From a virus (lineage: Duplodnaviria > Heunggongvirae > Uroviricota > Caudoviricetes): a stretch of 64,000 nucleotides of DNA. Below the pieces are notes generated by a model. That model saw only the letters and a list, made by a program, of their open reading frames with translations. It did no database searches and had not been told where the DNA came from. The stretch is taken from IMG/VR virus record IMGVR_UViG_2778261503_000006; one strand, written 5' to 3'. This document shows positions 2,241-28,352 of the stretch, in pieces. The position numbers and the translations under genes were made by a program. Within the stretch, counting starts at the first letter, position 1, and each line of letters opens with the position of its first letter.

Positions 2241-2686
2241 TGGGTAACTTTGGAAATTATTTCATTTTTATCATGGCATTTGTTGCCATCATTGACCGTT
2301 TCATTTTTCGTCGCAAGAGTGTTGAGATTTTGAGTATTGGTGACGCTGTAGTGAAAGAATCCGCTATAGCATTTCCTGTTTCGCTACGTGTTAAGCGAAG
2401 CTGGGTCAGCAATGCTCAAATCGAATATTGGTTGCAAGACCTGAAAAATCCATCTGTGGTTATTTCAGGGAAAACGCGACCAGTTGACGCCTCAAAACGC
2501 GGTGAGAGAGAAGAGTATTTGCTCATCGATACGAAATATCTTGAGCCAACGAAGTGGGATCTGAAAGTCACATTGACTAACGGTAACTGCCGACTGAATC
2601 CGCTTTATCGCATTTTCCCTATCAATGACTGCATAGAGCGCCAGTTTACGATCGAAAAGCGTAAAGGAGACTGGGATGTCAAATAA
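2240..2686 (+). CDS. hypothetical protein (LydB-like antiholin by position and size)
   Basis: 148 aa, start overlaps the stop of the previous gene; synteny only. Confidence 0.4.
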   Translation: MGNFGNYFIFIMAFVAIIDRFIFRRKSVEILSIGDAVVKESAIAFPVSLRVKRSWVSNAQIEYWLQDLKNPSVVISGKTRPVDASKRGEREEYLLIDTKYLEPTKWDLKVTLTNGNCRLNPLYRIFPINDCIERQFTIEKRKGDWDVK

Positions 2687-3296
2687 GAATAATTATGTTC
2701 TTCTTAATTATGATGAGTTAAACGAAAAGGGGCTGGCAAAACTCGTCAAAGAAATCAGCAAAGGTGGTTACAAGATAGCGAGGGTGATCCCTGCAAGTAA
2801 TGGCAGGAAGAAAGATGGGATCATGACGCGCACGTTTACCCTTATTGGTATTGATGAACAGACAATGGAAGTTCAGGTTAACGATACCGGTGATATATCT
2901 GGGATCAAACTGAATGGTAAAACAGTACCGTTCAAGCCAGTAAAAACAATGTCGGCTTTGGGGCAATCTCTTGCGGCTTTATTTAATCGCGGAGCAACTT
3001 CTTTCCAGAAGTCATTAGCTCGAAAACTTGCTCGTGCAGCAAAAAATATTGATGACGGAAATAAGAAGCGGCAGGGAGTTAAATCTAACGCTCAGAAATT
3101 AGCTGAAGCGAAAGAATCACGTGATGCACTCCGTGAAGATATCGCTAATGCTAACGACAAACTGTCTAAACTCCAGAGCAAGTCAGACAAAGTAATGCAA
3201 GATACGGGTAACGTTAAAGCTGCCTTGTCTCAGGAAGTAGCTAAGACACGTGCTCTTAAAGAAGAAATCGCGCGCCTGGAGGATGAGCATGATTAA
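2676..3296 (+). CDS. Hdf-like protein (shares a module with the following DarA-like protein)
   Basis: 206 aa; central segment resembles a segment of the 3283..5214 product (beta-rich stretch then K/R-rich helical stretch). Confidence 0.45.
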   Translation: MSNKNNYVLLNYDELNEKGLAKLVKEISKGGYKIARVIPASNGRKKDGIMTRTFTLIGIDEQTMEVQVNDTGDISGIKLNGKTVPFKPVKTMSALGQSLAALFNRGATSFQKSLARKLARAAKNIDDGNKKRQGVKSNAQKLAEAKESRDALREDIANANDKLSKLQSKSDKVMQDTGNVKAALSQEVAKTRALKEEIARLEDEHD

Positions 3297-5214
3297 CAAT
3301 CCTTTACGAATTAATATTCAGTCTACTTTTGCTGATACGATCCCCGGCTATGTGCCAAGTCGCTGGTCTTCAGAAGAATTAAGCGAAGATGACCTGATTT
3401 TTGAGGCGGCGACCTTAGAAGATATTGAGCTTGCCTATATGGGCAATGAAATTCTGGTTGTGTCTGACGAAGCTATGTTTGAGTCCATAACTACAACCAG
3501 AATTCGGTTAGCTCAAACAATGCGAGCTTTCGTCCGTGCGCTGAATCGTGGCCTGAATGGTACGAATATTATGGCAGGGACTGATGAAGCCGGGACCGAT
3601 GAAAATGGACGTAATTGTATTGGTGGTGCGATTATCGGTCGTGTACGTCGGGTAGCTAATATCCCTGTTTTGACCGCGCAGATACCGCTTACTGACGGGC
3701 AGAGTACAAGCATAATTTTCCACTCTCCAACAGCTGACGGGGCAAAAATAAAGAGTAACGACGAGCTTGTTGCATTTCAGTTTTTACTTAATAAGCGTAA
3801 CGTAACTCACGTTGTCGCCCCGATTGGTGGGAGAGATGTTTCTTTAAGCCAGGTATGCCAGGCGCTATCTAATTTGATTGAGCGTAACAGCGAAAAATTT
3901 AAGAAAGCAAAAGAGCGCCAGGACAAAATGAAGGCAGATATTGAGAGTTATCTCAATGAAGCAGATAAACTGGCAGAAGAACGGTCAATAATGATTGATC
4001 AGGTGGACGTTGCGCAACGTGGGCTGACTGAAAAGCGTGCTGCTCTTACGGAGATGCAAAAAAAACTTGATGCCCAGAAAGCCATCAACGAGGAATTACA
4101 AGAAAAACGCGATAAATTGTTGTCTGCTAAAGGTGAAAAAACGAAGGAACGAGCGTTTAGTGACCAGCTGCGACATGTAAAACATAATCTTGCCATTGAC
4201 GGAAAAACAGTGCTGGATAATGGCGCTGAAGTTAATTATATCACGTCCGGCAGTGACAATTTCGTTACGATAGTAGCACCTGAAGGTAAATTCAGTATTG
4301 ATGCCAGTGCTGTCAAAGGAGGCAGTTTGGCAGATGCTGCAACCAAATTACTTAAAGCCTACCGAGAGCATAACGCAGATAAATATAAAGTTGATGTGTT
4401 ACCAGGCCAGCAGGAAGACCCCGAACCACCACAGACAGACCCCGAGACGAACCCAGTATCACAACCAGAGAGCCAGGATGTAGGTAAATACCACTATGCA
4501 CTTCAATCTCGCCCGGCTGGTGTTGGTGCTGTGCCGGATGGAAATAAAGCCGTGCTTGATCGTCCTGACCAGGCTGATCAGTATTACGAATATGCTCGTC
4601 ACGGTATCATTACGTATGACCGTAAACTGACAGATGAAGAAGTCAGCCAGTACGAGTTGCTCTATCTTCCTGATGAAGATGAGCTGAAAGATTTTGCAGG
4701 CCAATTGGTTGTGTCCAGCATGTCGAAACATATTGATGGCTATGTAGACCTGTTTGGCAGTGACCTGAAAACATTCAAGGCGCAAGTGAAAATTCTTTTC
4801 CGCAAAGCGTTTCCAAACGTGGCGTATCCACTTGGTGATGGGGAGAACCTTTTCATTATGGACGTGTATAACGCCCTTCAAAATCATTCAAGCGAAGTAA
4901 AAACAGAGCATGTGGTTGAGCCGGAATCACAACCACAACCAGCACCAGAACAGGAGCCGGAGCCAGAAGAAGCTGGTGAATCAGCAAGTGAAGCTGATCA
5001 GGAGGCAGATAAAGCACTGGAGTACCTGAAATCCGTGCCGGAGCAGTTTACATCCCGCGATCTGACGGTCATCAGTGCTGAACTTGATCATGTGCAGGAA
5101 GCAGCAAACGCTCTAATCAGCGCAGGTCGATACGACGAGAACGAAGCCACTGTTGGTGCAGCAGTTGACTACCTGATCAACATTCTGGCTGAAATTCAGC
5201 AGGGAGGTGCTTAA
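3283..5214 (+). CDS. darA: DarA-like antirestriction/head-associated protein
   Basis: 643 aa from ATG 3283 with GGAGGA RBS; size and operon position match P1 DarA as I recall it; acidic Pro/Glu-rich linkers. Confidence 0.5.
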   Translation: MSMINNPLRINIQSTFADTIPGYVPSRWSSEELSEDDLIFEAATLEDIELAYMGNEILVVSDEAMFESITTTRIRLAQTMRAFVRALNRGLNGTNIMAGTDEAGTDENGRNCIGGAIIGRVRRVANIPVLTAQIPLTDGQSTSIIFHSPTADGAKIKSNDELVAFQFLLNKRNVTHVVAPIGGRDVSLSQVCQALSNLIERNSEKFKKAKERQDKMKADIESYLNEADKLAEERSIMIDQVDVAQRGLTEKRAALTEMQKKLDAQKAINEELQEKRDKLLSAKGEKTKERAFSDQLRHVKHNLAIDGKTVLDNGAEVNYITSGSDNFVTIVAPEGKFSIDASAVKGGSLADAATKLLKAYREHNADKYKVDVLPGQQEDPEPPQTDPETNPVSQPESQDVGKYHYALQSRPAGVGAVPDGNKAVLDRPDQADQYYEYARHGIITYDRKLTDEEVSQYELLYLPDEDELKDFAGQLVVSSMSKHIDGYVDLFGSDLKTFKAQVKILFRKAFPNVAYPLGDGENLFIMDVYNALQNHSSEVKTEHVVEPESQPQPAPEQEPEPEEAGESASEADQEADKALEYLKSVPEQFTSRDLTVISAELDHVQEAANALISAGRYDENEATVGAAVDYLINILAEIQQGGA

Positions 5215-5582
5215 TGACCATCTCTGTTTTAGACCGCCTGAAATTAGGTAAAGAGCTATCAGATCTAATGCAGGCGCAGAAAACGGCGCCAGTATTGCAA
5301 CGCGTCACCATTGGTAAGCAGATTGTTGATGTGATGCTGAAATTGGGCTTGGGGACTGCCGCGCAACCGGCAGCGGAACCGCAACAACAGACTGATCCTG
5401 TTGTAGATGAAGTTCCTAAGATAGTGACTGACTTCCTGGGCGGTGTGTTCACAAAGTCCACACAAATGGAATTTATTGATGCGCTGCGTGGGATCTCAAA
5501 CTATGTTGGCGAGTTCCTTACGTTGGAACAGGCAAAAGAGCAGACCATAAGCTGGGTGAAAGCCAACGGTTATGCAGGGTAA
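5214..5582 (+). CDS. small protein (DdrA-like by position)
   Basis: 122 aa, ATGA start/stop overlap with the DarA-like gene. Confidence 0.4.
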   Translation: MTISVLDRLKLGKELSDLMQAQKTAPVLQRVTIGKQIVDVMLKLGLGTAAQPAAEPQQQTDPVVDEVPKIVTDFLGGVFTKSTQMEFIDALRGISNYVGEFLTLEQAKEQTISWVKANGYAG

Positions 5583-5675: not shown

Positions 5676-8600
5676 TTGAACAAGTCAGTTACTTCCGCGC
5701 TATCCGAAGCAGCAGACATTAACAGTGTTATTGCGCTGGTTTCTTCATTAGAGAGGCGAGAAACACGCCAGGGGCGCAGTAGTTACGTAGTCACCAGTAA
5801 AGGGGCAGAGGTAAAGACGGCTTTTAAGGTCGTTGATGCCAGCAGTCTGATCATTTCGAACAACCTTGACGGTACGATTAATCCGGCCTTCCCGGAAGAA
5901 CTCCAGCCACGTGACCGTACACGGCTATCAAGCAAACTCCAGGTTAACCGTATTGCCTCCAATTTACGCCCGGCACAATTAACGGATTCCGGCATGAGCA
6001 GCCACGGAGCGCCGATAGTTGGTCCGGACAACGTTGTTGAATCCGGCAACGGAAGGAGCATGGGTATCTGGCGTGCCTATGAGCAAGGGCAGGCGGATGA
6101 ATATCGCCAGTACCTGATCGATCATGCAAAAGAGTTTGGTCTGAATCCTGACGACATTTCACAAATGTCTATGCCCGTATTGGTGCGAGAAAGACTCACA
6201 GATGTAGACCGCGCACAATTTGCCCGCGATTCAAACATCAGCGATCTGCAAGAGATGGCTGCAAGTGAAAAAGCGTATGCGGATGCGCAATTTCTCACTG
6301 AGAGCGTCATGGCGCTATTTAATCCTTCAGATGATGGAAATCTACTGGCGCGGTCCAATGATGCGTTTATTCGTGCGTTTTTGCGCGAAATAGGTGATAC
6401 GGCGACGGCAGGTTTGCTTACTGCCGATGGGCGTCCAACGAAACAACTTATCGACCGCATCCAGAATGCAATTTTTGCCAAAGCGTACAAGGATGAAAGG
6501 CTTGTTCGGCTGGTGGCGGAAGAGCCAGATCCGGAAATGCGTAACATTCTTACCGCATTAAATACGGCAGCCAGCGATTTTGCGCAAATGCAGTCGCTTT
6601 CAGGTGATGTTCACCATGACACGGTAACCGGACTGGTAGACGGTATAGAGCAATTGAATGGTCTGGATAAACAGGCTATTGCCGCGCTACAGGAAGCAAT
6701 TAACCTTGTTCGTGAAGCAAAAGATAACGGTCAGGCAGTAGAAGAGGTGATCGCACAGCGTGGATTGTTTGGAGATAGCACTCCGGAAGCAGAAGCGCTT
6801 GCTCTGTTTATTGTTGCCAACAACCGAAGCGCTAAGCGAATGGGGGCAGCTTTCAAGAAACTGGCGCAAAAAATTAACGATGAACTTATTCACCAGCAAC
6901 AAGCGTTAGGCGATATGTTCGGCGGCGGAGATGTCGATCTGCGTAGCATTTTATCTGCCGTTTCTGATGAAATTGAGGCTGAGTATGGCGAAGGTAAAGG
7001 GCTTAATTTCGCCATGTTTGAATCGGTTTCAGGAGAGGTCGAACCATACATTTCAAAGCTAATTGCTGATGCGACCAGCGTGGAGGACTTGATCCGAATC
7101 GTGAAGGTGTCAGAAAAAATTAAGGAGTCCGCAAAAAAAATAAAGCGCAATGTATTTTTGGAACTTGGTTTTTATATTCGCAATGTCACCGTTAATGAGA
7201 TTAAGGAGTGGGCTAAACGTTATGGATACAGCGACGCTGTGTTAACAACGATGTTATTGTCTTATCAACGCAGCAATTTTTATGCTAACGCACTGCGTGA
7301 CGCGATTGAAAAAGGAGATGAAGCTCCTTCGCTCGCAGATGAAAGAAATATTGATTGTGATATTGAAACGTTTTGCAACATATCAGAAGAAGGCGTGCCC
7401 GCTGAACAATTTATACGTGTTTTACATAATGCAGCAAAACATATTCCTGATGACTTTAGTATTGATGAATTGCGCAATGGTTGTCTTGTTTGGTTAGGTA
7501 ACTATTTAAAATCTCCAGCGTCTATTGCAGAGAAAACAGCTTTAAGATTTAGAAAGGAAATGAATAAAGCTGGAAGCGCAGAAGAGATGGTGTGCATAAT
7601 CCAAAATACTTTGAAGTTATTCAAAAAGAGCTTGCATAATATCGACGATATTATGGCGGCTGGTAGGAAAATAACAGCCAGTGTCGGAGTTAGCTCTGAA
7701 CTAACGGCAGAGGAGATCGCTGATGCGTATATTGAGACACTTGTCAGGCTTAAGGAGATAGTGGAATTAGCAGAGCATTCCTCATATTACGGAATCAAGG
7801 AGCGTGTTGACTTTACTATAGAACAAATCAATAAAGTTAGGTCAAATAAGGAAAAACTCACTGACTACCTTGCTGAGGTTTTGCACCAGAATGATCATGG
7901 GATTGGATATGATCTGAAAAAAATGCTTGTTTTTAATCTGGACATACCGGAAGACTTGCAAGCAGAACTATATGAAATAGCTTCATTAACACGTGGACAA
8001 AAAGCCTATCCTAATGCGCTTGAAAATGTAGTACATAAAAAAGTCAGAGCCGCATTTGACATGATTCTTGAATCGTCAAATGTGTCACATGACCAGTCTA
8101 AGGAATGGAGTCGTGGGATTGCTATTTCTGATGAAGCAGAGCAGTTAAGTGGTCACGATAATGAAACTTTCTCCCGTAAAGCATACAGTATTCGCGAGAC
8201 GATTGAAAAAGCCTATATTATTTCAGGAGGGACTTTATCTACATTAAAAAATATTAACCACAAGAACAATGTTCGTGCTTTTGCAAGTCGAAATGGGAAT
8301 ATAACAATTGATGCTAATAGTGATCACGAGCGTGTATTATGGCATGAAATAGGTCACCATATAGAACATTCAAATCCCCATCTATTGGAGAGGGCCAAAG
8401 CCTTCATTAAATCAAAAACTAACGGTAAAGTTTCTTATCATAATATTGGTAGCCGTGGCAGTGCTGAGTATTTGGTGCGAACCGACCTAAGTCATGGATA
8501 TATGTCTAAAATTTATATGGAAAATACGGTAAGTTCTGTCAGCGGCAGATTTATATCAAAGCCACCTGCATTAAGCAATTGCAGGGCGACTGAGATTTTT

Positions 8601-8717
8601 TCTATGGCCTTGCAGATGTATGCCGATCCGGAGCAGGCGACTAACTCTGTATTAAACAATGACGGCGTGCTGGAATTTTTCTTGGGATGTATGAAGGAGT
8701 TGCAAAATGAAGTATAG
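5676..8717 (+). CDS. large virion-associated protein (DdrB-like by position) with AT-rich C-terminal HExxH metallopeptidase-like module
   Basis: 1013 aa from TTG 5676 with AAGGGGA RBS; GC drops visibly after ~nt 7100; WHEIGHHIEH at nt 8339-8368. Confidence 0.6.
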   Translation: MNKSVTSALSEAADINSVIALVSSLERRETRQGRSSYVVTSKGAEVKTAFKVVDASSLIISNNLDGTINPAFPEELQPRDRTRLSSKLQVNRIASNLRPAQLTDSGMSSHGAPIVGPDNVVESGNGRSMGIWRAYEQGQADEYRQYLIDHAKEFGLNPDDISQMSMPVLVRERLTDVDRAQFARDSNISDLQEMAASEKAYADAQFLTESVMALFNPSDDGNLLARSNDAFIRAFLREIGDTATAGLLTADGRPTKQLIDRIQNAIFAKAYKDERLVRLVAEEPDPEMRNILTALNTAASDFAQMQSLSGDVHHDTVTGLVDGIEQLNGLDKQAIAALQEAINLVREAKDNGQAVEEVIAQRGLFGDSTPEAEALALFIVANNRSAKRMGAAFKKLAQKINDELIHQQQALGDMFGGGDVDLRSILSAVSDEIEAEYGEGKGLNFAMFESVSGEVEPYISKLIADATSVEDLIRIVKVSEKIKESAKKIKRNVFLELGFYIRNVTVNEIKEWAKRYGYSDAVLTTMLLSYQRSNFYANALRDAIEKGDEAPSLADERNIDCDIETFCNISEEGVPAEQFIRVLHNAAKHIPDDFSIDELRNGCLVWLGNYLKSPASIAEKTALRFRKEMNKAGSAEEMVCIIQNTLKLFKKSLHNIDDIMAAGRKITASVGVSSELTAEEIADAYIETLVRLKEIVELAEHSSYYGIKERVDFTIEQINKVRSNKEKLTDYLAEVLHQNDHGIGYDLKKMLVFNLDIPEDLQAELYEIASLTRGQKAYPNALENVVHKKVRAAFDMILESSNVSHDQSKEWSRGIAISDEAEQLSGHDNETFSRKAYSIRETIEKAYIISGGTLSTLKNINHKNNVRAFASRNGNITIDANSDHERVLWHEIGHHIEHSNPHLLERAKAFIKSKTNGKVSYHNIGSRGSAEYLVRTDLSHGYMSKIYMENTVSSVSGRFISKPPALSNCRATEIFSMALQMYADPEQATNSVLNNDGVLEFFLGCMKELQNEV

Positions 8718-15204: not shown

Positions 15205-15229
15205 GCCCCGGCCTGGCCGGGGCTTTTTT
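15205..15229. terminator. bidirectional rho-independent terminator between convergent genes
   Basis: gccccggcctggccggggc followed by tttttt. Confidence 0.7.
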
Positions 15230-15714
15230 CATGCCTCATTAGTTGAGGTTGCTGCGTCTCCGACTGGTAACAGGGCGGTATTGCGTGGTTCGCCAGCAGG
15301 CCAGCGATAGCCAGACACTCTTGATGTTGGGAATGCGCGAATATTAACCGCATCCCCCTGGTTCCCACCCAGGACAAGCAGATCGCCATTGGCGCGGCGT
15401 CCGACAACGAAGCCTACGTGCCCACCGCCTACGCGGGTAAATACAACGATACATCCGTATGCCGGTGTATCTAATTTCTCGCCCCAATCCAGATAGGATT
15501 TTGCCGACTCAAATCTTGTTGAGCGAATGCCTACACGTTCCAGCATTGCACCGACAAATGCTGCGCACCACGGCGTTTCATCGTCTTTAATTCCGCCGCG
15601 CTTGATGTCGCGCCAGAACTGAACGATTTCAGGGTTGTGTTTAGCGCCTTTTATTTCAGTCAAGCCAATGTGCTTACGGGCTTCAATTAGCCAGCGAGGT
15701 TCAATGTTTGCCAT
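15229..15714 (-). CDS. CHAP/NlpC-P60-like putative peptidoglycan hydrolase (TIGR02594-like)
   Basis: 161 aa; N-terminal Cys (PWCAAFVG) and downstream His (GGGHVGFVVG) spaced as in papain-fold amidases. Confidence 0.55.
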   Translation of the reverse strand: MANIEPRWLIEARKHIGLTEIKGAKHNPEIVQFWRDIKRGGIKDDETPWCAAFVGAMLERVGIRSTRFESAKSYLDWGEKLDTPAYGCIVVFTRVGGGHVGFVVGRRANGDLLVLGGNQGDAVNIRAFPTSRVSGYRWPAGEPRNTALLPVGDAATSTNEA

Positions 15715-15865
15715 ATTTTTCTCCCGGTCATGGGTTAATAAGTAGGCAAACTATGGGGAGTATGTGATTTTGACGGTAGTATCGTCCCCCTGAAAATAAC
15801 ATTCTCCATACCCTCTCAACCGTACCGCATAGCGGAATTTTTTACGGTTTAGAGGGGGAAATCCT

Positions 15866-18800
15866 TTGGACAAACTACTTCATTCAATCAGTGAAGCCTC
15901 CAGCTTAGGCGAACTGATTGAAATTGTTAGTCGGTTGCATAAATTACGTGCTGTTGCGACCTTTGGCGTCAGGAAAGCCGATGGCGTCAGTATTCAGAAA
16001 ACACGCCGGGCAGCAAACAATGCCGCAGTAAATCTTCTTAATTCCCTTCCGCCCGGCTTCGATGGGGCGAAATTAACTGACGAACAACGTCAGATTCTTG
16101 CTGGGTATACCGGTGAAGGCGGCCTGACAGATGGTGAGGGCAGCCAATACGAATACTACACGCCACAGTTTATGGCTGAAGGTATATGGGAGCTGTTTGC
16201 TGACTACGGTATTGATGGCGGTCACGTACTGGAACCATCAGCTGGCACGGGTATTTTCCAGGAGACAAAACGGCAGGGAATGATAATGACCAGCGCCGAG
16301 CTGTCTCCGATCTCCGGTCGAATCAACCAGCTGTTGCACCCGGAAGACGATGTGAACATTGGGGCGTTTGAGGCTCTGGCGGCGAAAGACGCAATGTATG
16401 ACCACGCTGTTGGTAACGTACCGTTTGGCGAAGGCCGTTCCGGCGTTGCAGGGCTTGATCCGGCATATGCAAACGAGAAGAACGTTGGCAATTACTTTGT
16501 GCTGCGCACGATCGACAAGGTTAAACCTGGTGGGCTTATCGTATTGGTGGTGCCGAATGGCATGACTGATGGTACGAAATACAAAAAATTGCGCGATAAA
16601 GTCAGCCGTAAAGCGGAATTTTTGGGCGCGCATCGTATGCCTTCCGGTACGTTCAGTGAATCAGGTACAGATACCGTGGTGGACGTATGGGTATTGCGTA
16701 AACACCCGGAAGCCTTCCTGGAGATGATCCCCGATACGGATGATTCGACGCTCAAATCGGCAAACGTCCTTTGGGTTACCTTCCTCAAAGGGAAATGGTT
16801 TACAACCGAAGGGAAGCGATTTGTTTACGGCGACATGGAACGTACCAGCTTCCGCAATACCCTAGTGGTGAAAAAAGACGGTCGTGTATCCAATGAGTCG
16901 ATGAAAACCGCGCTATCTCGTCGCTTTGATAGTCGCATCAATTGGGATTTGCTCGGCGTAACTACTCAGGCATGGCAGGGCGCGAAAGTGGGCGATAAAC
17001 GCCTTGTAGGCGGTATCTGGCATGAGTTTGATGGTCTGAAATGGGTTCAGGACACGACAACCAAATCCTCCGCGCTTGATGTAAGTCGATATGGTGTTTC
17101 GACGTTTGGCGATCTGCAGATCGCGTTCCAGTCAACAAACGGGATTCTGGCTTTGTCATGGGACCAGATATCGGCGATCGCGTCCGACTATCCATCGGTT
17201 GTCAGTGATGAAGTGGCAGCAATGATTCGCTTTGCTGGCAAGCAGCGAGAAAAAGACAGGGAGCGCGTTATGCGCGGTGCACTGATAGGTCAGTTGATCA
17301 ACAAGGCACTTGATTTGCGTAACCTGGGGGTGAACGTTGATGACAAACTGGCAGATGCATCCCGCTTGGCGGCAGCAGAAGTTGCGAAGTATGGACCACC
17401 GCACGCGATTAAGCTGAATGGGCTTGCTGAAGCTGGCGCTAAAAACTGGATGACGTTCACTGGCAATGTGAAACAGGATGGTTCCACTTCTGACCTTCTG
17501 GCAGGGCGACTTGATGTAACGGATGGTGCTGCCGGTATTGACTTTACGCGTCCTGAACAAGTGATAGCACATCTTTTTAGTGATGTAGCCCTTAATCCTA
17601 TAACGCTGGGCGACTTTCGTGAGGCGTTTGCTGGTGAACTGCCAGAGGACGACGACGCGGTCCTTGAATACCTGGCGAAATTTGATGATATCGCTATTGA
17701 TGGGTATGGCTGTCTGCTGCCGATGGACCGCGCCACCAGCGGCGATGTTGCAACCAAAACAGCACTGCTGGTGGGCTGGCGTGATGCGTCAACAGGTGAG
17801 CAGAAAGCGAACTTTGAGCGTCAGTTGGCGAAAATCGAAGAGAAACGCATTTTCACGCCACTAAATAAAGTCACCGTTAATCTGAATGCCCGCTGGCTGG
17901 ATCGCCGCTTGATAAAAGAGTTCCTGGCAGAGCAGGGCTATGACGAGTTTAAGTACACTGAACCTGATCTGAAGGTCGTCGATGGCATTCTGGTATCTCC
18001 GGACGATTACGAAGGTAAGGACGGGGTATTTACCGGCTATCAGCTACGAACCGTAAACGGCAAAAACGGGAATGAGTTCAAGAAGGCCAACAATAAAGAC
18101 GGCTTCCTGAACCAGTTAGAAAACTACCTGAACGGTGTTAAACCGCGTGGGCAGAACGCTAACGAGTACCTGGATAAAATTGCTCAACTGGAAGTTAGCT
18201 TTAACGACTGGTTACGCACCCACCCGCAGGCGGATCAGATAGCCCGTGACTATAACGACGCATTCAATGGTTTCATTCCGTTCACACATTCTGACGCACC
18301 GCTTGGCCTGGAAGGGATTAGTGGAAAGCGCATTCCTCTGACTTATCAGAATGAAGAAGTTCGGCGCTTGTCAGAAGATGGGCGTGGCATCATGGGATTT
18401 GGTACCGGGCTGGGTAAAACCACGACCGCGCTTGCGCTTGAGGCGTATAACTTCGAAACAGGTCGCACTAAACGCACGTGTATTGTTGTTCCGAAGGCGG
18501 TTTATCAGAACTGGTATCACGAGGCACAGAGTTTCTACAGTGCTGATGCCTTCGCCAATATGATGTTTATCGGTTTGGATGAAGTTCGTGATGACAGCGG
18601 AAATATTCTGACCGCGCCGGTGCTTGATGAAAATGGCGAACCACGCCTCGACAGTAACGGGCAGCCTCTTACCAGAAATGTTGTGAAAGAGTCCTCCAGC
18701 GCCGTTATCGTTCAGCGTATGAACATGATCCCGTCGTCAAATTGGCGAACGGTCATCATGACAAAAGAACAATTCGCGTCTATCCCGCTACGAGAAAAAA

Positions 18801-21800
18801 CCATCGAGGAGAACTCACAGCAAGCTGTCTTTAATGCTGTGGAAATGGGGCGTCTTGACCTGGCGTCCGGTAAACACCGTGATGCGCAGAAGAAGAACAA
18901 GATTAAGGATCAGGCCGCGAATACCGGTACAACGAAGAAGCAGAATATCCCTTACTTTGAGGATATGAACTTCGATAGCGTGATTGCCGACGAGGGGCAT
19001 AACTACCGCAACTCCTTTAATGCCGGGCGTGAAGCGGGACAACTGGCATATTTGCCTAACCCGGCAGTATCCAAGATGGCCCGCGACATGGCTGTAAAAG
19101 CTGCGTACATGATGAAACGCAACAACGGGCGTGGTGTAGTCATGCTGACGGCAACACCGCTGGTGAACAGTCCGATTGATGCCTTCAACATGCTGTCTAC
19201 TGTCATTCCGCAGGAAGAGTGGATGCGTATGGGCATCATTACGCCTGATGATTTCGTTCGTGTGTTTGGCAAAACAGCCACAGTTCAGGTCCAGAAAATT
19301 TCCGGGGAAGTGGAAGAGAAGCAGGGGCTGGTGGGCTTCCAGAACCTTGACGGCCTGCGTGGTATTTTCCATCGTTGGACCACTCTGAAGACTGCTGCAG
19401 ATGTCGGAGCGACGGTTAAAATTCCCGACATCATCGAGAACACCTTGCAGATCCCGATGACAGGGGAGCAGGAGACTGCTTATGAAGAGCTTCGTAAGCG
19501 TGCTCAGGAGTTAAGTCGCAATGATGAGCTGACAGTCGATGAAAACGGGCATATCACTAACGACAAACCGGATGATTTCATCTTCTCCATCATCCGTGAC
19601 ATGGATAAGGTTGCTATAGACCCGGATCTGTATGCCAGTGCGATTACATTCCAGTTCCCCGTTGAGCTTGCAGACCAGGTAAAAGCTATTGCTGATGCCT
19701 TGCCAAAAGTAGCTGGCGGTAAAGTGGCAGATGATGTTGATGAGGCCGAGGAAGACGGCGCTGGCGGGCTGGTCAGTACGCGTACCAGCAAGGTAGTGAA
19801 GACCGCTTTTAGTGAACATCCGACGCATGTTGAAATACGTGCCAGCATTGAACTGGAAGCTGAAATACTGAAGGCCATTGCGGCTGCCGGCATTGATATG
19901 CAGCAGGTGTCGCACCCCATCCCGCCGAAGTATGCCGCGCTGATCGAAAATCTTCGTGAAGGTCTGAAGAACGGTAAGCAGATCGTCTTTATTGATGAAA
20001 AAGCCCAGCACCAGAAGCTGCGCCGTATTATCGCCAGTGCACTGCAAATGCCGGAGCAGGAGATTGGCATTATCAATGCGACGACAGTTAGCCAGGCTGG
20101 TGGCATCAAGCTGAAGAAGGTGAATAAGCCGACCGAACCTACTCCAAACAAAAACGGTGAATACAAAGAAGGGGCATGGGAAACCTACTACAGCAAACTT
20201 GCCCAATATGAGGATTATCTCTCCGCTAAAAATGATGCTGGCCTTGAGGGCATGGAAGGTATTGCCGCCGACTATAACGAAGGTCGCACGCGCATCATAA
20301 TCTGTAACAAGAAGGCTGAAGTAGGTATTAACCTGCACATCGGGACAACCGATATCCACCACCTGACACTACCCTGGACACCAGCCAGTATCGACCAACG
20401 AAATGGGCGCGGTGCGCGCGTAGGTTCACCGCAAGAAAAGGTCAATGTTCACTACTATTGTGGCAAAGGCACATTCGACGACTTCCGTCTGGATACGCTG
20501 AAACGTAAGAAAGACTGGATCAAGATGGTGATGACATCCGACATGTCAGAGATCGCCAATGGTGATGCGGATGATGCTGATGAACGCGCCATTATGCTGG
20601 CGGCAAACCCGGAAGAACGCCGCGCAATCATGGCTCGCCAGGCGCAAGAGCGTGAAGAACGTCTGAAACTGAAAGCACAGCGCGAGGCCAACAATGCTCT
20701 CGATATCTACCTGAAAGCGGCAAACGCCGCCGGAAAAGATATCGGCATGATGGAGACAGAACTGAAAAGCGCGATGGAACAGATAGAGTATTACCAGCGC
20801 AATCTTGACGACCTGATAAAAGCGGGTACGAACAGGAATGGGCAAAAATACGCGCTTGAGCAGTTGAGTAGCTACAGAAAACGTGCGCGGGTGCTGCGGT
20901 TTGCGATCACCAGGGCAAAAGACGCGGATACCATAATGAAACGCTCTCGTGGTGATGTGGAGCGCGCTATTAAGTCTGGTGTGCTGGATATCAGTATCGA
21001 TGTTATTCAGAACCCACAGGAATATATGCGCACTGACAAGAATATCCTGTTGCATAAAGGTAGTTATTACCGTGCAGTCATTGATGATCGCGAAACAACA
21101 GCGATTGTCCGGGTGGAAAAAATTGACGGTGAAAAAGCACAATACCTCTGCCGTATCGCCTGGCTGGATAGAGCAAGTCGTTACGCTCGAGCACCGGGGT
21201 CAATCGTTACATTGCCGTTTGACTCTGTGATTGAAGCGGTAACTTTTGAAGAGGGGGTAGCTGAATCGCGCGCAACGGCTGCGCGTGGTGTTCAGTGCCA
21301 CCAGCTATCAACAATACTTACTCGCGATCAGTTCTATGATGCTATTCGCAATGGGGTAATGAATGTTATTGCTGGTAAACCTGGTAATGCATGGGGCGGT
21401 GGGTCAGCTATTAAATACTGGGCATATCGCACAGATGATGGTCAGATCGCGCTGTCATCGGCCTATGATGGCGTGATAGGCCAAAAAATCGGGCGAGCAT
21501 CGGATATAGCACCTGAGCGATGGATATATCCTGATGGCAACGACGAGGCGCTGAAGCGTGAAGTGGCAAAAATACAAGCCAGTGATAACCCGCTGAATAT
21601 CGTGGACGGCGAGGGATTCCTCCAGGCATTGTATGGGTATGATTACACCCAGGGAATGCAGGCATGGGGCGCACAGGCAACGATGGATGATGTTGCCCAT
21701 GAGTTCGAAAACTGGATGGCTGGGCGTGGTCTGTCAGGTCGTTCGCTTAATAAAGTCACTTCTGAAGATATTCTTAGCTTGTTCCGCAAACCGTCCGGAG

Positions 21801-22702
21801 AAGGTCTGGAATCATTCTGGAGGACCGTGCTGGCATACCGTTTATTCCAGGGCAGGATGAAAGCCTTTAGCAATATCGATGATATTGAACGGATGTTTAA
21901 TCAGGTCAAGATCGCGAAAATTAAGGCGAAGATCGAAAAAACACGTTCTGCGCTGGTGGCCTGGCGCGATGCATTGTTTGAGCAATATAAATCACTCAGT
22001 GATGCAGATGGATGGGCGGCATTGGAACAGCTGGCGAATAATGGGGTAGATGGAGCGAAACTCGCCATTGTTCAGGCTGATAACCCCCTGGAATCACCGG
22101 CAGCACAGTGGATTAAGGTGGGGGCTGTCATCAATGCATTTGATGAAAAACACATTAGTAAGGACGATTTTGCTGATGCTGTTTCTGTTAATCGCCTGGT
22201 AGAAATGGCTACCCGCCGCGCCCGTGAGTTGAAAGACGGCGACTATGTGAATGAGTTGCCGGATACGCTCAAATCGGCAACGTGGCAGGACTATGTATCG
22301 CTGAAAAACGGCGGGGCCACTGAATCAGAGATCGCGGAAAGGCTTGAGCAGGCTGAAAGCAAAAGAGAAGAGCAGGCGGCAGTGGCTGAAGCCAGAGCTG
22401 ATGAAGCGGCGAATGATGACTATATCATTGTGGTTAATGATAAGCCGATTCGCGCTAAGGCGCGTGTTCGCGGGCGCTGGTGGAGCGTCAGCGAGGACGT
22501 TGGCGCGGTTTATCTCATTGCCGACCAACCAGGTTCCTCGACAATACGGAACGCCAAAGACGCGATTAAGAAGATTGGCGGACGTTTCTGGAATTTTGAA
22601 GCAAACCCGGTTGCTGATGTGAACTTTGACCGTCCTGCATGGATGGTATCTACGCGTTACTCGGTAGATGAACTGCGTAAAATAATCGCCGATGCGGCCT
22701 AA
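15866..22702 (+). CDS. darB: DarB-like giant antirestriction protein: N-terminal N6-adenine-methyltransferase-like domain plus SF2 helicase domain
   Basis: 2278 aa from TTG 15866 with AGAGGGGGAA RBS; EPSAGTGIF (nt 16232-16258) and GNVPF MTase-like motifs; Walker A GFGTGLGKTT (nt ~18394-18423), DEGH box (nt ~18986-19000), motif VI QRNGRGAR. Confidence 0.75.
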   Translation: MDKLLHSISEASSLGELIEIVSRLHKLRAVATFGVRKADGVSIQKTRRAANNAAVNLLNSLPPGFDGAKLTDEQRQILAGYTGEGGLTDGEGSQYEYYTPQFMAEGIWELFADYGIDGGHVLEPSAGTGIFQETKRQGMIMTSAELSPISGRINQLLHPEDDVNIGAFEALAAKDAMYDHAVGNVPFGEGRSGVAGLDPAYANEKNVGNYFVLRTIDKVKPGGLIVLVVPNGMTDGTKYKKLRDKVSRKAEFLGAHRMPSGTFSESGTDTVVDVWVLRKHPEAFLEMIPDTDDSTLKSANVLWVTFLKGKWFTTEGKRFVYGDMERTSFRNTLVVKKDGRVSNESMKTALSRRFDSRINWDLLGVTTQAWQGAKVGDKRLVGGIWHEFDGLKWVQDTTTKSSALDVSRYGVSTFGDLQIAFQSTNGILALSWDQISAIASDYPSVVSDEVAAMIRFAGKQREKDRERVMRGALIGQLINKALDLRNLGVNVDDKLADASRLAAAEVAKYGPPHAIKLNGLAEAGAKNWMTFTGNVKQDGSTSDLLAGRLDVTDGAAGIDFTRPEQVIAHLFSDVALNPITLGDFREAFAGELPEDDDAVLEYLAKFDDIAIDGYGCLLPMDRATSGDVATKTALLVGWRDASTGEQKANFERQLAKIEEKRIFTPLNKVTVNLNARWLDRRLIKEFLAEQGYDEFKYTEPDLKVVDGILVSPDDYEGKDGVFTGYQLRTVNGKNGNEFKKANNKDGFLNQLENYLNGVKPRGQNANEYLDKIAQLEVSFNDWLRTHPQADQIARDYNDAFNGFIPFTHSDAPLGLEGISGKRIPLTYQNEEVRRLSEDGRGIMGFGTGLGKTTTALALEAYNFETGRTKRTCIVVPKAVYQNWYHEAQSFYSADAFANMMFIGLDEVRDDSGNILTAPVLDENGEPRLDSNGQPLTRNVVKESSSAVIVQRMNMIPSSNWRTVIMTKEQFASIPLREKTIEENSQQAVFNAVEMGRLDLASGKHRDAQKKNKIKDQAANTGTTKKQNIPYFEDMNFDSVIADEGHNYRNSFNAGREAGQLAYLPNPAVSKMARDMAVKAAYMMKRNNGRGVVMLTATPLVNSPIDAFNMLSTVIPQEEWMRMGIITPDDFVRVFGKTATVQVQKISGEVEEKQGLVGFQNLDGLRGIFHRWTTLKTAADVGATVKIPDIIENTLQIPMTGEQETAYEELRKRAQELSRNDELTVDENGHITNDKPDDFIFSIIRDMDKVAIDPDLYASAITFQFPVELADQVKAIADALPKVAGGKVADDVDEAEEDGAGGLVSTRTSKVVKTAFSEHPTHVEIRASIELEAEILKAIAAAGIDMQQVSHPIPPKYAALIENLREGLKNGKQIVFIDEKAQHQKLRRIIASALQMPEQEIGIINATTVSQAGGIKLKKVNKPTEPTPNKNGEYKEGAWETYYSKLAQYEDYLSAKNDAGLEGMEGIAADYNEGRTRIIICNKKAEVGINLHIGTTDIHHLTLPWTPASIDQRNGRGARVGSPQEKVNVHYYCGKGTFDDFRLDTLKRKKDWIKMVMTSDMSEIANGDADDADERAIMLAANPEERRAIMARQAQEREERLKLKAQREANNALDIYLKAANAAGKDIGMMETELKSAMEQIEYYQRNLDDLIKAGTNRNGQKYALEQLSSYRKRARVLRFAITRAKDADTIMKRSRGDVERAIKSGVLDISIDVIQNPQEYMRTDKNILLHKGSYYRAVIDDRETTAIVRVEKIDGEKAQYLCRIAWLDRASRYARAPGSIVTLPFDSVIEAVTFEEGVAESRATAARGVQCHQLSTILTRDQFYDAIRNGVMNVIAGKPGNAWGGGSAIKYWAYRTDDGQIALSSAYDGVIGQKIGRASDIAPERWIYPDGNDEALKREVAKIQASDNPLNIVDGEGFLQALYGYDYTQGMQAWGAQATMDDVAHEFENWMAGRGLSGRSLNKVTSEDILSLFRKPSGEGLESFWRTVLAYRLFQGRMKAFSNIDDIERMFNQVKIAKIKAKIEKTRSALVAWRDALFEQYKSLSDADGWAALEQLANNGVDGAKLAIVQADNPLESPAAQWIKVGAVINAFDEKHISKDDFADAVSVNRLVEMATRRARELKDGDYVNELPDTLKSATWQDYVSLKNGGATESEIAERLEQAESKREEQAAVAEARADEAANDDYIIVVNDKPIRAKARVRGRWWSVSEDVGAVYLIADQPGSSTIRNAKDAIKKIGGRFWNFEANPVADVNFDRPAWMVSTRYSVDELRKIIADAA

Positions 22703-22738: not shown

Positions 22739-23173
22739 ATGACGACATTAATTGACACTGTAAAACCGACGGAATCCTACCTTGAGGACATTTTGCCGCA
22801 GGCGCTCAATGGCAGGAGTGAAGAGGCGTTTCTGGATGCATATCTGAATGGCATGGTGGAAAGGCTGAAACGAGATCCACAGCTTTATCACCTTTATGGG
22901 CCGTGGTGGCCTGCGCTTAAAACGTTATTGCTGGAGCGCGGCGACATATCATTTGGACAAGTTGTAGATAGTGATGTGGCAGAGATCTACAAAATGAGTC
23001 GCCCGGCGCTTACGGTTTTGGCTGGGCATCTGTATTCGAGCGATCGCCTGGAAAATGACGCGGTATACAATCCTGTTCATGCTCTGGAAGTCGCACCTTA
23101 TGCCGATGATACAGAGCCATACGTGTACACAAGTTACGACGAGTCTATAGAGAAATATCGAATTATGGGGTAG
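22739..23173 (+). CDS. hypothetical protein
   Basis: 144-aa ORF directly downstream of darB-like gene. Confidence 0.5.
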   Translation: MTTLIDTVKPTESYLEDILPQALNGRSEEAFLDAYLNGMVERLKRDPQLYHLYGPWWPALKTLLLERGDISFGQVVDSDVAEIYKMSRPALTVLAGHLYSSDRLENDAVYNPVHALEVAPYADDTEPYVYTSYDESIEKYRIMG

Positions 23174-23572: not shown

Positions 23573-24067
23573 TTGTTGTTATTATTTCGCATATTTACTA
23601 TCAATGGGTGTGTTAGAAAAATAGCGCGAAAGAGAAGGCGTCGCAGTGAATATTCTGAAACATCCCCACATGCCGCAGCTCTTAGAGAACTGGAGAAAAA
23701 CCCAGATCTAATCAAAAGGAACCATGAGCATTACGAGCAGGTTCGCGTCCTGGACTGGATGTATCGCAATATGCGTTATGTGTATGAGCATACTCACGCC
23801 ACTCCAAACGGTGGCCTGCGAGGCATAAGGACGGCAATAAAAATGGTGGCAGAGGGCCAAAAGAAGGGATATCCCGATCTTTCTATAGACCTTGCTTGTG
23901 GGGGATACCACGGAATGCGCATTGAGATGAAACATGGGAGAAATCGCCTGACTCCCGAACAACTCGTCTGGATGACTCGCCTCACAGAAGCCGGTTACTA
24001 CTGCTTTGAGGCGCGCAGTGCCGCTGAAGCCATAAAAGCTATCACGGAGTATGTTTGTCTTGATTAA
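23573..24067 (+). CDS. VRR-NUC domain nuclease (true start uncertain, probably internal)
   Basis: HEHYEQVRVLDWM...GYPDLSIDLACGGYHGMRIEMKHG: PD-(D/E)xK VRR-NUC pattern; operator-like motif lies inside the track's N-terminal extension. Confidence 0.55.
   Translation: MLLLFRIFTINGCVRKIARKRRRRSEYSETSPHAAALRELEKNPDLIKRNHEHYEQVRVLDWMYRNMRYVYEHTHATPNGGLRGIRTAIKMVAEGQKKGYPDLSIDLACGGYHGMRIEMKHGRNRLTPEQLVWMTRLTEAGYYCFEARSAAEAIKAITEYVCLD
23608..23625 (+). promoter_or_regulatory. operator-like motif (gtgtgttagaaaaatagc)
   Basis: core TGTTAGAAA. Confidence 0.4.
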
Positions 24068-27135: not shown

Positions 27136-27210
27136 GATGGTGTAGCTCAGCGGTAGAGCAGTTGGCTGTTAACCAACTGGTCGGTGGTTCGAATCCACCC
27201 ACCATCGCCA
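27136..27210 (+). tRNA. tRNA-Asn (anticodon GUU)
   Basis: manual cloverleaf: acceptor gatggtg/caccatc, D-arm gctc/gagc, anticodon loop ctGTTaa, T-loop ttcgaat, 3' CCA. Confidence 0.85.
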
Positions 27211-27215
27211 ATTTA

Positions 27216-27302
27216 GGGGAGTTAGTCCGTAGGGGTAGCGGGGTAGACTGTAAATCTACTGTCATTGCGACTCGGGTGGTTCGACTCCATCACTCCCCAC
27301 CA
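27216..27302 (+). tRNA. type II tRNA-like gene, anticodon GUA (Tyr) by manual fold; D-arm non-canonical
   Basis: acceptor ggggagt/actcccc, anticodon stem gtaga/tctac with loop ctGTAaa, long variable arm, T-loop ttcgact, 3' CCA. Confidence 0.55.
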
Positions 27303-27306
27303 AATT

Positions 27307-27382
27307 GCCGGTTTAGCTCAGTTGGTAGAGCAGTCGCTTTGTAAGCGAATGGTCAGCGGTTCGATCCCGTTAACCGGCACCA
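27307..27382 (+). tRNA. tRNA-Thr (anticodon UGU)
   Basis: acceptor gccggtt/aaccggc, D-arm gctc/gagc, anticodon loop ttTGTaa, T-loop ttcgatc, 3' CCA. Confidence 0.8.
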
Positions 27383-27836
27383 ACACAACAGGTAAGAGCA
27401 TTTGTAGAGTTCGACTCTCTACCGTGGGCTTTTTCCCGCGATGCGAGCCATAAATGCTCTTACCGTTGTGATGAAGTGCAGCTCTTTGAAGCAACCAGAA
27501 GATAAGCATCTGGCTTCACAACATAAACCGCAGGAACGACCAATAAACGGTAGTCCGTATGGAGAACACCCCGTTGAGGAAGAGGTCTGGCCGGAACCGT
27601 AACCGGCACTACAACGTTGAGAACACTGGCGTAACGGGGTCATATCCCAATCTACGAATAAATGTTGCGTTGCAGCGTGACAACCAGTGTTCTCAACATT
27701 GTGGTGAATGCGCAGGCTGATGCGCGAAAGACATTGCAGCTATTGCGGAAAAGAGCTGTTCGGCGGGGCAATTAAACGCCCGTGAGAGTCTGAAATAACC
27801 GCAAGCCGGAGATCAGCACCGGTCGCCACAATAACG

Positions 27837-27923
27837 GGAGAGTAGGGAGCATGGTGCTCAAGCGGTCTTGAAAACCGTCCCATTGCGCAAGCGATGATGG
27901 TTCGATTCCATTACTCTCCGCCA
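27837..27923 (+). tRNA. type II tRNA-Ser-like (anticodon UGA); D-arm short
   Basis: acceptor ggagagt/actctcc, anticodon arm gcggt-ctTGAaa-accgt (very like E. coli tRNA-Ser), 17-nt variable arm, T-loop ttcgatt, 3' CCA. Confidence 0.55.
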
Positions 27924-28214
27924 GTGCAACATTAAGGGTATTTGGCTAATTAAGCGAATGCCGGAAGCAGAACCGGATCACCAAATGCGTACAGGCGTCA
28001 TCGCCGCCCAGTCAGCCAAATGCTCTTACCATTGCGGTGAATGCGGCTAAGCGCACGCGGAACAGTTAAAACAGTAAAGGTGGTCTTTTTACTGGCGTAA
28101 CGAGAATCCATAAGTGATCCGGCGTTAATTGTTAACTGGTTAACGTCACCGGGAGGCGCCCGGCACCGCAACCTAACAGCAATGGCGTTTTGTCTTAAAA
28201 GGTGGCTGCAAGTG

Positions 28215-28343
28215 ATGGATTTTTGGGCGTTTGCCGATAAAAACCCGGAGTGGACATTATTGTTTCTGCTGGTGGTTGCATACGGGGTAGAGCAAGCGGC
28301 AAAAGCCTTACGCGGTTCTGGCAAAAAGCGTAAGCGTAATTAA
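28215..28343 (+). CDS. candidate 42-aa small membrane protein (below the track's size cut-off)
   Basis: ATG 28215 preceded by AAGGTGG; hydrophobic core TLLFLLVVAYGV and K/R-rich tail; ends 10 nt before a tRNA. Confidence 0.25.
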   Translation: MDFWAFADKNPEWTLLFLLVVAYGVEQAAKALRGSGKKRKRN

Positions 28344-28352
28344 CAGTAATCT

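What the first reader, a model, noticed from the sequence alone, without database searches (positions are those of the whole stretch)
15866..22702. 2278-aa DarB-like methyltransferase-helicase
Seen: one uninterrupted ORF with an N-terminal SAM-MTase-like region (EPSAGTGIF at 16232-16258; GNVPF) and a central SF2 helicase core (Walker A 18394-18423, DEGH 18986-19000, motif VI QRNGRGAR), plus ~900 aa of unassigned C-terminal sequence. Established: P1 DarB is of this size and architecture and is injected to block type I restriction. The unassigned C-terminal third is the most likely place for lineage-specific function.
Basis: partly seen in the sequence, partly recalled or inferred. Interest (0 to 1): 0.5.

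Follow-up and report, generated by a model that had tools for sequence, protein, structure and literature searches.

The report
DarB antirestriction gene of D6-like phage-plasmid
The 2278-codon gene is the already annotated DarB homologue of a phage D6-like plasmid prophage, a giant methyltransferase-helicase protein that P1-type phages carry in the capsid to protect their DNA from host type I restriction; it is a known gene.

Summary
The ORF is real: 15866-22702, + strand, TTG start, 2278 aa, and the reported motifs are present. It is 99.1% identical in DNA (11 aa differences) to orf15 of Escherichia phage D6, which is annotated "defense against restriction; similar to P1 gene darB". Full-length copies sit on about 90-kb phage-plasmids in 93 of 5426 complete E. 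coli genomes.

It aligns with P1 DarB from residue 1 (40-43% identity). It has the same Pfam domains, and the methyltransferase and SNF2 ATPase motifs are unchanged across six diverged family members. ulx follows it, and hdf-darA-ddrA-ddrB lie upstream, so the whole Dar set is present. No nuclease domain or restriction partner gene was found.

The truly unassigned C-terminal part is about 720 aa, not about 900. It is the fastest-diverging segment (17-30% identity against 41-70% for the enzyme domains). It occurs only in DarB-size proteins and fragments of them (26 hits among 1.84 billion representatives). Its AlphaFold model is confident (pLDDT 85) but has no significant fold relative apart from a weak match of a small β-barrel to Tudor/SH3-type domains. 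It remains under purifying selection and is exchanged in patches by recombination among D6-like elements.

The verdict is that this is an already known gene of low interest. How DarB works is still undefined.

The parts
15866..22702 (+). darB homologue, 2278 aa, TTG start (D6 orf15 allele)
   Evidence: ORF. It is 99.1% identical in nt to D6 orf15, with 11 aa differences. It is 40-43% identical to P1 DarB over the full length. It matches phrog_1685 end to end.
15866..15955 (+). N-terminal 30 aa, positional equivalent of the P1 DarB capsid-targeting sequence
   Evidence: It aligns with P1 residues 1-30. By my count from the alignment, 8 of 30 residues are identical. In P1 these 30 residues suffice for capsid targeting (PMC9024508). 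Function here is inferred only.
15983..16150 (+). LPD36-like helical region with GxGU motif (GEGG, aa 83-86) and the TP cap (T99-P100) before the methyltransferase core
   Evidence: The motifs are conserved in all six full-length family members. The domain definition comes from PMC5512222. No Pfam model matched.
16151..16765 (+). gamma-class N6-adenine methyltransferase domain (motif I EPSAGTGIF, motif IV GNVPF)
   Evidence: Pfam N6_Mtase and Eco57I. Weak match to the type I HsdM structure 7eew, aa 91-263. The motifs are invariant in the family; one member has NPPF instead of NVPF.
16766..18340 (+). about 525-aa middle region without assigned domain, mostly helical
18341..20545 (+). SWI2/SNF2-type SF2 ATPase (motif I GLGKT, II DEGH, III TATP, VI QRNGRGAR) with a long insert between the two lobes
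   Evidence: Pfam SNF2-rel_dom, ResIII and Helicase_C. Motifs located and conserved in all family members.
20633..20974 (+). C-terminal module, part 1: three long helices (aa 1590-1703)
   Evidence: AF2 model m66e90b66cf57, helices 2-33, 37-64 and 68-114; mean pLDDT 84.8 for the whole 689-aa model, per-10-residue block means 83-94 across residues 1-120.
21023..21241 (+). C-terminal module, part 2: small β-barrel weakly resembling Tudor/SH3/KOW folds (aa 1720-1792); a recombinationally variable patch
   Evidence: Strands 131-203 of the model. The only recurrent Foldseek matches are Tudor, KOW and LSm domains (target-normalised TM 0.64-0.82, E > 0.1), and the output does not state which query residues align, so the assignment to this barrel is my inference. 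In alleles L005 and L006 aa identity falls to 60-74% and nt identity to 63-73% here, and dS is 1.34 against 0.15-0.31 elsewhere.
21545..22408 (+). C-terminal module, part 3: helical domain (aa 1894-2181), preceded by the conserved YPDxxDxxLK motif
   Evidence: Model helices 305-592. Y1888, P1889, D1890, D1893 and K1897 are nearly invariant. No fold match.
22421..22699 (+). C-terminal module, part 4: terminal α/β domain (aa 2186-2278) with a conserved AKDxxK...G(A)xF/W...WW motif
   Evidence: Model strands and helices 597-689. Conservation shown. No Pfam hit in eight family members.
22739..23173 (+). ulx homologue (helper of DarB incorporation in P1), 36 nt downstream of darB
   Evidence: phrog_1629 'Ulx-like anti-restriction', E 2e-59. 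46% identity to P1 Ulx. No terminator-like site lies between the genes.
2676..3296 (+). hdf homologue
   Evidence: phrog_1620. 40% identity to P1 Hdf.
3289..5214 (+). darA homologue (ATG at 3289 after GGAGGA; overlaps hdf by 8 nt)
   Evidence: phrog_1926. 39% identity to P1 DarA. Start read.
5214..5582 (+). ddrA homologue
   Evidence: phrog_1855. 33% identity to P1 DdrA.
5676..8717 (+). ddrB homologue, 1013 aa
   Evidence: phrog_2299. 44% identity to P1 DdrB over the full length.

Best explanation
The gene is the DarB orthologue of a phage D6-like, P1-related plasmid prophage. Shown here: the ORF is intact and under purifying selection. It is colinear with P1 DarB. It carries intact SAM-binding and N6-adenine methyltransferase motifs and intact SNF2 ATPase motifs. 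It sits next to ulx in a genome that also encodes Hdf, DarA, DdrA and DdrB. Taken from work on P1: DarB is built into the phage head as the last Dar component, directed by its N-terminal 30 residues, at about 40 copies per virion. It is believed to leave the capsid with the DNA, and it protects that DNA in cis against EcoK/EcoB-type type I restriction. Inferred mechanism: the protein binds the entering DNA and translocates along the duplex with its SNF2 motor. It then either methylates adenines before the host enzyme acts, or blocks or displaces the translocating type I complex. The roughly 720-aa C-terminal module is specific to this family and diverges fast. It most likely serves as an interaction or adaptor part, binding either capsid partners or host restriction complexes, rather than as a further enzyme.
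For: Identity with the D6 darB homologue and its annotation. Full-length homology to P1 DarB and the same Pfam families. All catalytic motifs are conserved among six members at 36-53% overall identity. dN/dS is 0.03-0.14 in every segment. The complete Dar gene set is present at 33-46% identity to P1, in line with portal (51%) and protease (43%). The homologue P0002 lies on a 93-kb contig with RepL and with 566-aa and 334-aa genes placed where P1 has its portal and protease genes (size and position only, no annotation). P1 biology: PMC9024508, PMC12810830, PMC12707154. The methylase-SNF2 translocation model is from PMC5512222. The C-terminal module is confined to DarB-size proteins and fragments. 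It has a confident multi-domain model without enzyme-like fold matches.
Against: No experiment exists for the D6-type protein, and the P1 mechanism is explicitly 'not defined' (PMC11109961). Motif IV is NVPF rather than the canonical NPP(Y/F). From memory, not tested here, N-x-P-Y variants are active in Erm and KsgA adenine methyltransferases. Only 8 of 30 residues of the P1 capsid-targeting segment are identical by my count, and P1 residues 6-10 are not conserved. No target-recognition-domain fold was recognised in the middle region, so sequence-specific methylation has no support. No P1-type late promoter consensus was found upstream. The antirestriction seen with plasmid-borne P1 darB was a DNA artefact (Chi plus EcoKI sites), so the protein's activity has never been shown in isolation.
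Confidence: 0.85

Rival explanations
1. The gene is the DarB orthologue, but it protects by physical occlusion or as a roadblock. In this view about 40 copies coat or ride on the entering DNA and sterically stop type I enzymes. The methyltransferase fold serves only as a DNA- or SAM-binding module, and no methyl transfer matters.
For: Dar acts only in cis, and a shielding hypothesis is current in reviews (PMC12707154; PMC5512222 introduction). Motif IV is non-canonical, NVPF. No TRD-like fold was found. DarB does not protect against all type I families in P1 (PMC12810830), which fits poorly with unspecific methylation.
Against: Motifs I and IV, the TP cap, and all ATPase motifs are strictly conserved across members that share only 36-53% identity, and dN/dS in the methyltransferase is 0.03-0.04. 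This argues that catalysis is under selection.
Confidence: 0.3
2. The protein is a restriction or defence enzyme of the prophage (type I, III or ISP-like R-M, or a DISARM/BREX-like component) that attacks other incoming DNA, not an antirestriction protein.
For: The methyltransferase plus SF2 helicase combination is also the core of type I, III and ISP enzymes. Pfam ResIII matches aa 826-1048. There are weak partial matches to DISARM DrmD, ZorD and DpdE helicase lobes.
Against: No nuclease domain appears in any library search or in the two models. The NCBIfam DrmD score is 44.5 bits against a cut-off of 610. The neighbours are phage lysis, head, replication and Dar genes, with no hsdS, hsdR, res or mod. 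The protein is orthologous over its full length to a virion protein of P1.
Confidence: 0.02
3. The gene is a decaying remnant with no function in this element.
For: Damaged copies exist elsewhere: a frameshifted allele (L008) and an internally deleted, frameshifted copy joining aa 8-150 to aa 1887-2278 (L012).
Against: The frame is intact over 6.8 kb. dN/dS is 0.03-0.14 in all segments against two diverged alleles. All catalytic motifs are intact.
Confidence: 0.01

Closest known systems
Escherichia phage D6 orf15 (ASR76325.1; MF356679 / NC_050154), annotated 'defense against restriction, similar to P1 darB'
   Same: It has the same length and the same TTG start. It is 99.1% identical in nt with 11 aa substitutions, and has the same downstream neighbours: ulx, orf13, pmgM and the genes that follow.
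   Different: It is only an allelic variant. Upstream the window differs from the D6 record: ddrB is 1013 aa here against 454 aa annotated in D6. The window also has two extra tRNA genes.
Phage P1 DarB (AAQ13985, 2255 aa)
   Same: The two proteins are colinear over the whole length and match the same Pfam families. The LPD36, methyltransferase and SNF2 motifs are identical. ulx lies downstream and the other five Dar genes are present.
   Different: Overall identity is 40-43%. The C-terminal 700 aa are only 19-26% identical, with several indels. The N-terminal targeting segment is 8/30 identical by my count. In P1 the gene lies divergently next to prt-pro and upstream of the EcoP1 res-mod genes; here it lies after repL, icd-ant and a peptidoglycan hydrolase gene, and no res/mod genes follow.
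Methylase-SNF2 'dyad' polyvalent proteins of phages and conjugative elements (Iyer et al. 2017, PMC5512222), including the giant 'DarB-like' virion proteins of Bcep22-like and PEp14-like podophages
   Same: They share the LPD36 + EcoKI/TaqI-like adenine methyltransferase + SWI2/SNF2 ATPase core. This protein gives a partial match to phrog_10089 'DarB-like antirestriction'.
   Different: Those proteins carry other effector domains and lack this C-terminal module. An exhaustive search found the module only in 2192-2289-aa P1-type proteins and fragments of them.
Type III and type ISP restriction-modification enzymes
   Same: They also couple an adenine methyltransferase with an SF2 dsDNA translocase. 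This is the mechanistic analogy proposed in PMC5512222.
   Different: No nuclease domain, no recognisable TRD and no partner subunit were found here. The biological role is the opposite one, protecting incoming DNA.

Membership tests
P1 DarB family (virion-borne methyltransferase-SNF2 antirestriction protein of P1-like phage-plasmids) | Full-length, colinear sequence homology to P1 DarB | tested here: met
   BLASTP gives 40% identity over 2372 columns, E = 0, and 43% over aa 1-1935. The MAFFT alignment runs through to the last residues.
P1 DarB family (virion-borne methyltransferase-SNF2 antirestriction protein of P1-like phage-plasmids) | N-terminal LPD36 region (GxGU), TP-capped helix, and gamma-class N6-adenine methyltransferase with motif I and NPP(Y/F) | tested here: met
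   GEGG aa 83-86, T99-P100, EPSAGTGIF and GNVPF are present. All are conserved in six family members, with motif IV as N(V/P)PF. Pfam N6_Mtase scores 20.7 bits against a cut-off of 20.4.
P1 DarB family (virion-borne methyltransferase-SNF2 antirestriction protein of P1-like phage-plasmids) | SWI2/SNF2-type SF2 ATPase with intact motifs I, II, III and VI | tested here: met
   SNF2-rel_dom scores 46.7 bits and Helicase_C 24.3 bits. GLGKT, DEGH, TATP and QRNGRGAR are conserved.
P1 DarB family (virion-borne methyltransferase-SNF2 antirestriction protein of P1-like phage-plasmids) | Genomic partners: ulx immediately downstream, and hdf-darA-ddrA-ddrB in the same phage genome | tested here: met
   PHROG matches for all five partners. 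They are 33-46% identical to the P1 proteins.
P1 DarB family (virion-borne methyltransferase-SNF2 antirestriction protein of P1-like phage-plasmids) | N-terminal capsid-targeting signal and presence in the virion head | not testable with these tools
   The first 30 residues are alignable but only 8/30 identical to P1 by my count. Packaging is shown only for P1 (PMC9024508).
P1 DarB family (virion-borne methyltransferase-SNF2 antirestriction protein of P1-like phage-plasmids) | Protection in cis of infecting DNA against EcoK/EcoB-type type I restriction | not testable with these tools
   This is a genetic phenotype known for P1 only.
Type I / III / ISP restriction-modification enzyme | Endonuclease domain in the polypeptide, or a partner restriction subunit gene nearby | tested here: not met
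   No nuclease family appears in Pfam, NCBIfam or PADLOC. The fold searches gave no nuclease-like matches. The neighbours are phage genes.
Type I / III / ISP restriction-modification enzyme | Target recognition domain or specificity subunit | tested here: inconclusive
DISARM DrmD and other SNF2-type defence helicases | Score above the curated family cut-off over the full model | tested here: not met
   NF038317 DrmD scores 44.5 bits against a cut-off of 610, and the match covers only the C-terminal helicase lobe. PADLOC matches are partial only.

The most novel reading that the evidence does not exclude
The family-specific C-terminal third could be an exchangeable specificity module rather than a passive tail. 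It consists of long helices, a β-barrel weakly resembling Tudor/SH3 folds, a helical domain and a terminal α/β domain. Its β-barrel patch and the whole module are swapped between D6-like phage-plasmids by recombination. The module would determine which host restriction complexes (type I families, possibly BREX) DarB engages, so that allele shuffling retunes the phage's antirestriction spectrum.
Probability: 0.15. Interest if true: 0.55.

Novelty: already known. Interest (0 to 1): 0.15.

Why it matters
As an annotation the finding adds nothing new. The gene is the published darB homologue of phage D6, and it is common on E. coli and Salmonella phage-plasmids. Its wider relevance is indirect. 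DarB is the archetype of the methylase-SNF2 polyvalent proteins, and its mechanism is still undefined. A second lineage only 40% identical shows which features are indispensable: every catalytic motif, the YPD motif and the terminal α/β domain. It also shows which parts are free to vary: the targeting segment and the β-barrel patch. That comparison can guide mutagenesis. The D6-type and P1-type proteins could also be compared for the range of restriction systems they counter.

Tried and rejected
- Pfam on separate segments (aa 1-100, 326-825, 1201-1445, 1540-2278), and on the last ~95 aa of eight family members, gave no credible family. My recollection that the terminal domain might be DUF5710-like was not supported.
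- NCBIfam and PADLOC gave only partial helicase or methyltransferase lobe matches far below the cut-offs.
- PDB sequence searches found only weak HsdM and INO80 matches for the whole protein, and nothing for the C-terminal profile.
- Foldseek of the C-terminal model against PDB and BFVD gave no hit with E <= 1e-3. The afdb50 library was unavailable.
- hhalign of the C-terminal profile against DdrB and DarA from the window showed no paralogy.
- I derived a P1 late-promoter pattern from annotated LPlyz, LPdar and LPpro (AAGTNAYTW-N4-TANNNT). It had no site upstream of darB, and window-wide counts were at chance. Only a weak sigma-70-like site lies at 15770-15797.
- The three homologous-protein searches returned almost only near-identical fragments. 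Diversity came from the exhaustive representative search.
- The D6 genome paper (PMC5800970) and Piya et al. 2017 (PMC6011833) are not held.
- Co-variation of the variable β-barrel patch with ulx: the ulx of the L005 plasmid is 100% identical to the window's although the patch is 63-73% identical in nt. There is no link, but only two alleles were compared.


Full report
**Observation.** The window holds one uninterrupted ORF at 15866-22702 on the + strand, 2278 aa.
- It starts with TTG, preceded by GAGGGGG. An in-frame stop at 15830 leaves no earlier start.
- Pfam finds N6_Mtase/Eco57I (aa 151-281), SNF2-rel_dom/ResIII (826-1048) and Helicase_C (1464-1520). P1 DarB matches the same five families.

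**Identity.** Megablast shows the ORF is 99.1% identical over 100% of its length to orf15 of Escherichia phage D6, annotated "defense against restriction; similar to P1 gene darB".
- The proteins differ at 11 positions.
- The surrounding genes match the D6 map: portal, protease, repL, icd, antirepressor and a peptidoglycan hydrolase on the opposite strand, then darB, ulx, orf13 and pmgM/R/S.
- Full-length copies occur in 113 plasmid records of E. coli, Salmonella and relatives, and in 93 of 5426 complete E. coli genomes. Nearly all are on ~90-kb non-mobilizable plasmids, where RefSeq calls the product "SNF2-related protein".
- The window is therefore a D6-like plasmid prophage and the gene is known.

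**Relation to P1 DarB.**
- BLASTP against P1 DarB (2255 aa) gives 40% identity across 2372 columns starting at residue 1, and 43% over aa 1-1935.
- The other Dar components are all present in the window: hdf 2676-3296, darA 3289-5214, ddrA 5214-5582, ddrB 5676-8717 and ulx 22739-23173. Each has a specific PHROG match and is 33-46% identical to its P1 counterpart.
- This is similar to portal (51%) and protease (43%), so DarB has diverged in step with the rest of the genome.
- An exhaustive HMMER search yielded further full-length relatives of 2192-2289 aa. One of them, 53% identical, sits on a 93-kb contig with RepL, unannotated 566-aa and 334-aa genes where P1 has its portal and protease genes, and a ulx-sized gene downstream. 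This is the P1-type context.

**Anatomy and conservation.** In an alignment of six full-length members sharing 36-53% identity, every element is conserved:
- the LPD36 GxGU motif (GEGG),
- the TP cap,
- motif I (EPSAGxGVF),
- motif IV (GN[V/P]PF),
- helicase motifs I, II (DEGH), III ([T/S]ATP) and VI (QR[N/E]GRGARVG).

These are the features that Iyer et al. use to define the methylase-SNF2 dyad, of which DarB is the archetype (PMC5512222).

Pairwise identity by region:

| Region | Pairwise identity |
|---|---|
| Methyltransferase | 41-70% |
| Middle region | 29-55% |
| Helicase | 44-69% |
| aa 1590-2278 | 17-30% |

It spans about 720 aa rather than about 900, because conservation around the helicase extends to about aa 1560.

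**The C-terminal module.**
- It has no Pfam, NCBIfam or PDB sequence match.
- Among 1.84 billion representative proteins only 26 match it. All are DarB-size proteins or fragments of them. Two short hits were checked: one is truncated by a contig end and one lies in an internally deleted copy.
- An AlphaFold2 model built on 12 family sequences is confident (mean pLDDT 84.8) but multi-domain (pTM 0.47). It shows three long helices, a small β-barrel, a mixed α/β part, a large helical domain and a terminal α/β domain.
- Foldseek against PDB and BFVD gives no hit at E <= 1e-3. The only recurrent resemblance is weak, to Tudor, KOW and LSm domains. I attribute it to the β-barrel, but the output does not report which query residues align.
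- The module shows no paralogy to DdrB or DarA.

**Selection and mosaicism.** Comparison with diverged D6-type alleles shows purifying selection throughout. dN/dS is 0.03-0.07 in the enzyme parts and 0.08-0.14 in the C-terminal part, so the tail is a constrained protein, not junk.
- The gene is also a recombination mosaic.
- Against plasmid CP043277, aa 1651-1800 (the end of the helices plus the β-barrel) has dS 1.34, while the rest has 0.15-0.31. Nucleotide identity drops to 63-73% in that patch, between flanks of 89-99%.
- Against an E. fergusonii plasmid, aa 2-1560 has dS of about 1.0 but aa 1561-2278 only 0.15-0.28. This places a breakpoint at the helicase/C-terminal boundary.
- The variable patch does not co-vary with ulx in the two alleles examined.

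**Mechanism.** What the sequence shows is an intact, selected methyltransferase-translocase with the P1 Dar assembly partners.
- The P1 literature establishes the following. DarB is a head protein of about 40 copies, added last in an ordered pathway that depends on Hdf, DarA, DdrB and Ulx. Its first 30 residues suffice for capsid targeting. The Dar system acts only in cis against type I systems, DarB specifically against EcoK and EcoB (PMC9024508, PMC12810830, PMC12707154).
- How it protects is not defined. The apparent activity of plasmid-borne darB was traced to Chi and EcoKI sites in the DNA (PMC11109961).
- The most likely mechanism is inferred, following PMC5512222. The ejected protein loads on the entering DNA, translocates with its SNF2 motor, and methylates adenines or displaces or blocks the type I complex.
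- Strict conservation of both catalytic centres favours an enzymatic role over pure shielding, but shielding is not excluded.
- The non-canonical NVPF motif is compatible with activity by analogy with N-x-P-Y adenine methyltransferases. That analogy is from memory and was not tested here.

**Rivals.** A restriction or defence enzyme is rejected. No nuclease domain and no partner genes were found, helicase-lobe matches to DrmD and similar families lie far below their cut-offs, and the protein is orthologous to a virion protein. A pseudogene is rejected by the intact frame and the low dN/dS.

**Verdict.** The gene is already known (D6 orf15, a P1 darB homologue). Two modest additions come from this work: the C-terminal third is a family-restricted module without significant fold relatives, and darB is patchily recombined among D6-like phage-plasmids. 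Interest is low.

Noticed in passing
window 1-64000; inside darB at 17733(-), 17767(+), 19327(+), 20096(+), 21298(-), 21952(+), 22476(+): Chi (GCTGGTGG) occurs 45 times in the 64-kb window, against 1.5 expected from shuffles (maximum 5). Seven copies lie in darB. Chi enrichment is a known P1 feature, and P1 darB has 11 copies (PMC11109961). It fits the recombinational mosaicism seen in this gene.
   Followed up: partly
window 27136-28428: There are five tRNA genes on the + strand: Asn, Tyr, Thr, Ser(tga) and Met. The corresponding D6 stretch has only Asn, Thr and Ser by ARAGORN. The D6 record annotates them on the strand opposite to the ARAGORN call.
   Followed up: partly
window 5676-8717: The ddrB homologue is full length here: 1013 aa, 44% identical to P1 DdrB end to end. 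The D6 record annotates a 454-aa ddrB-like gene followed by two small ORFs, so the window is not D6 itself in this stretch.
   Followed up: partly
L012:2044-3734 (Logan SRR23015449 contig): This is a P1-like element with an internally deleted, frameshifted darB. Homology to aa 8-150 is joined directly to homology to aa 1887-2278, between a 566-aa gene of portal size and a ulx-sized gene. It is either a natural decay product or an assembly artefact.
   Followed up: partly
L008 (CP042620.1 23884-30719): This D6-type darB allele, 96.9% identical, is 6836 nt long and frameshifted, and it is unannotated in the record. It may be a pseudogene or a sequencing error.
   Followed up: no
window 15229-15714 (-): A 161-aa peptidoglycan hydrolase-like gene lies divergently upstream of darB. 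RefSeq names it a TIGR02594 family protein, and its best PHROG match is 'baseplate hub subunit and tail lysozyme'. P1 has no gene at this position: there darB abuts prt-pro.
   Followed up: no
window 23573-24067: In related plasmids RefSeq names the pmgM-like gene downstream of ulx/orf13 a 'VRR-NUC domain-containing protein'.
   Followed up: no
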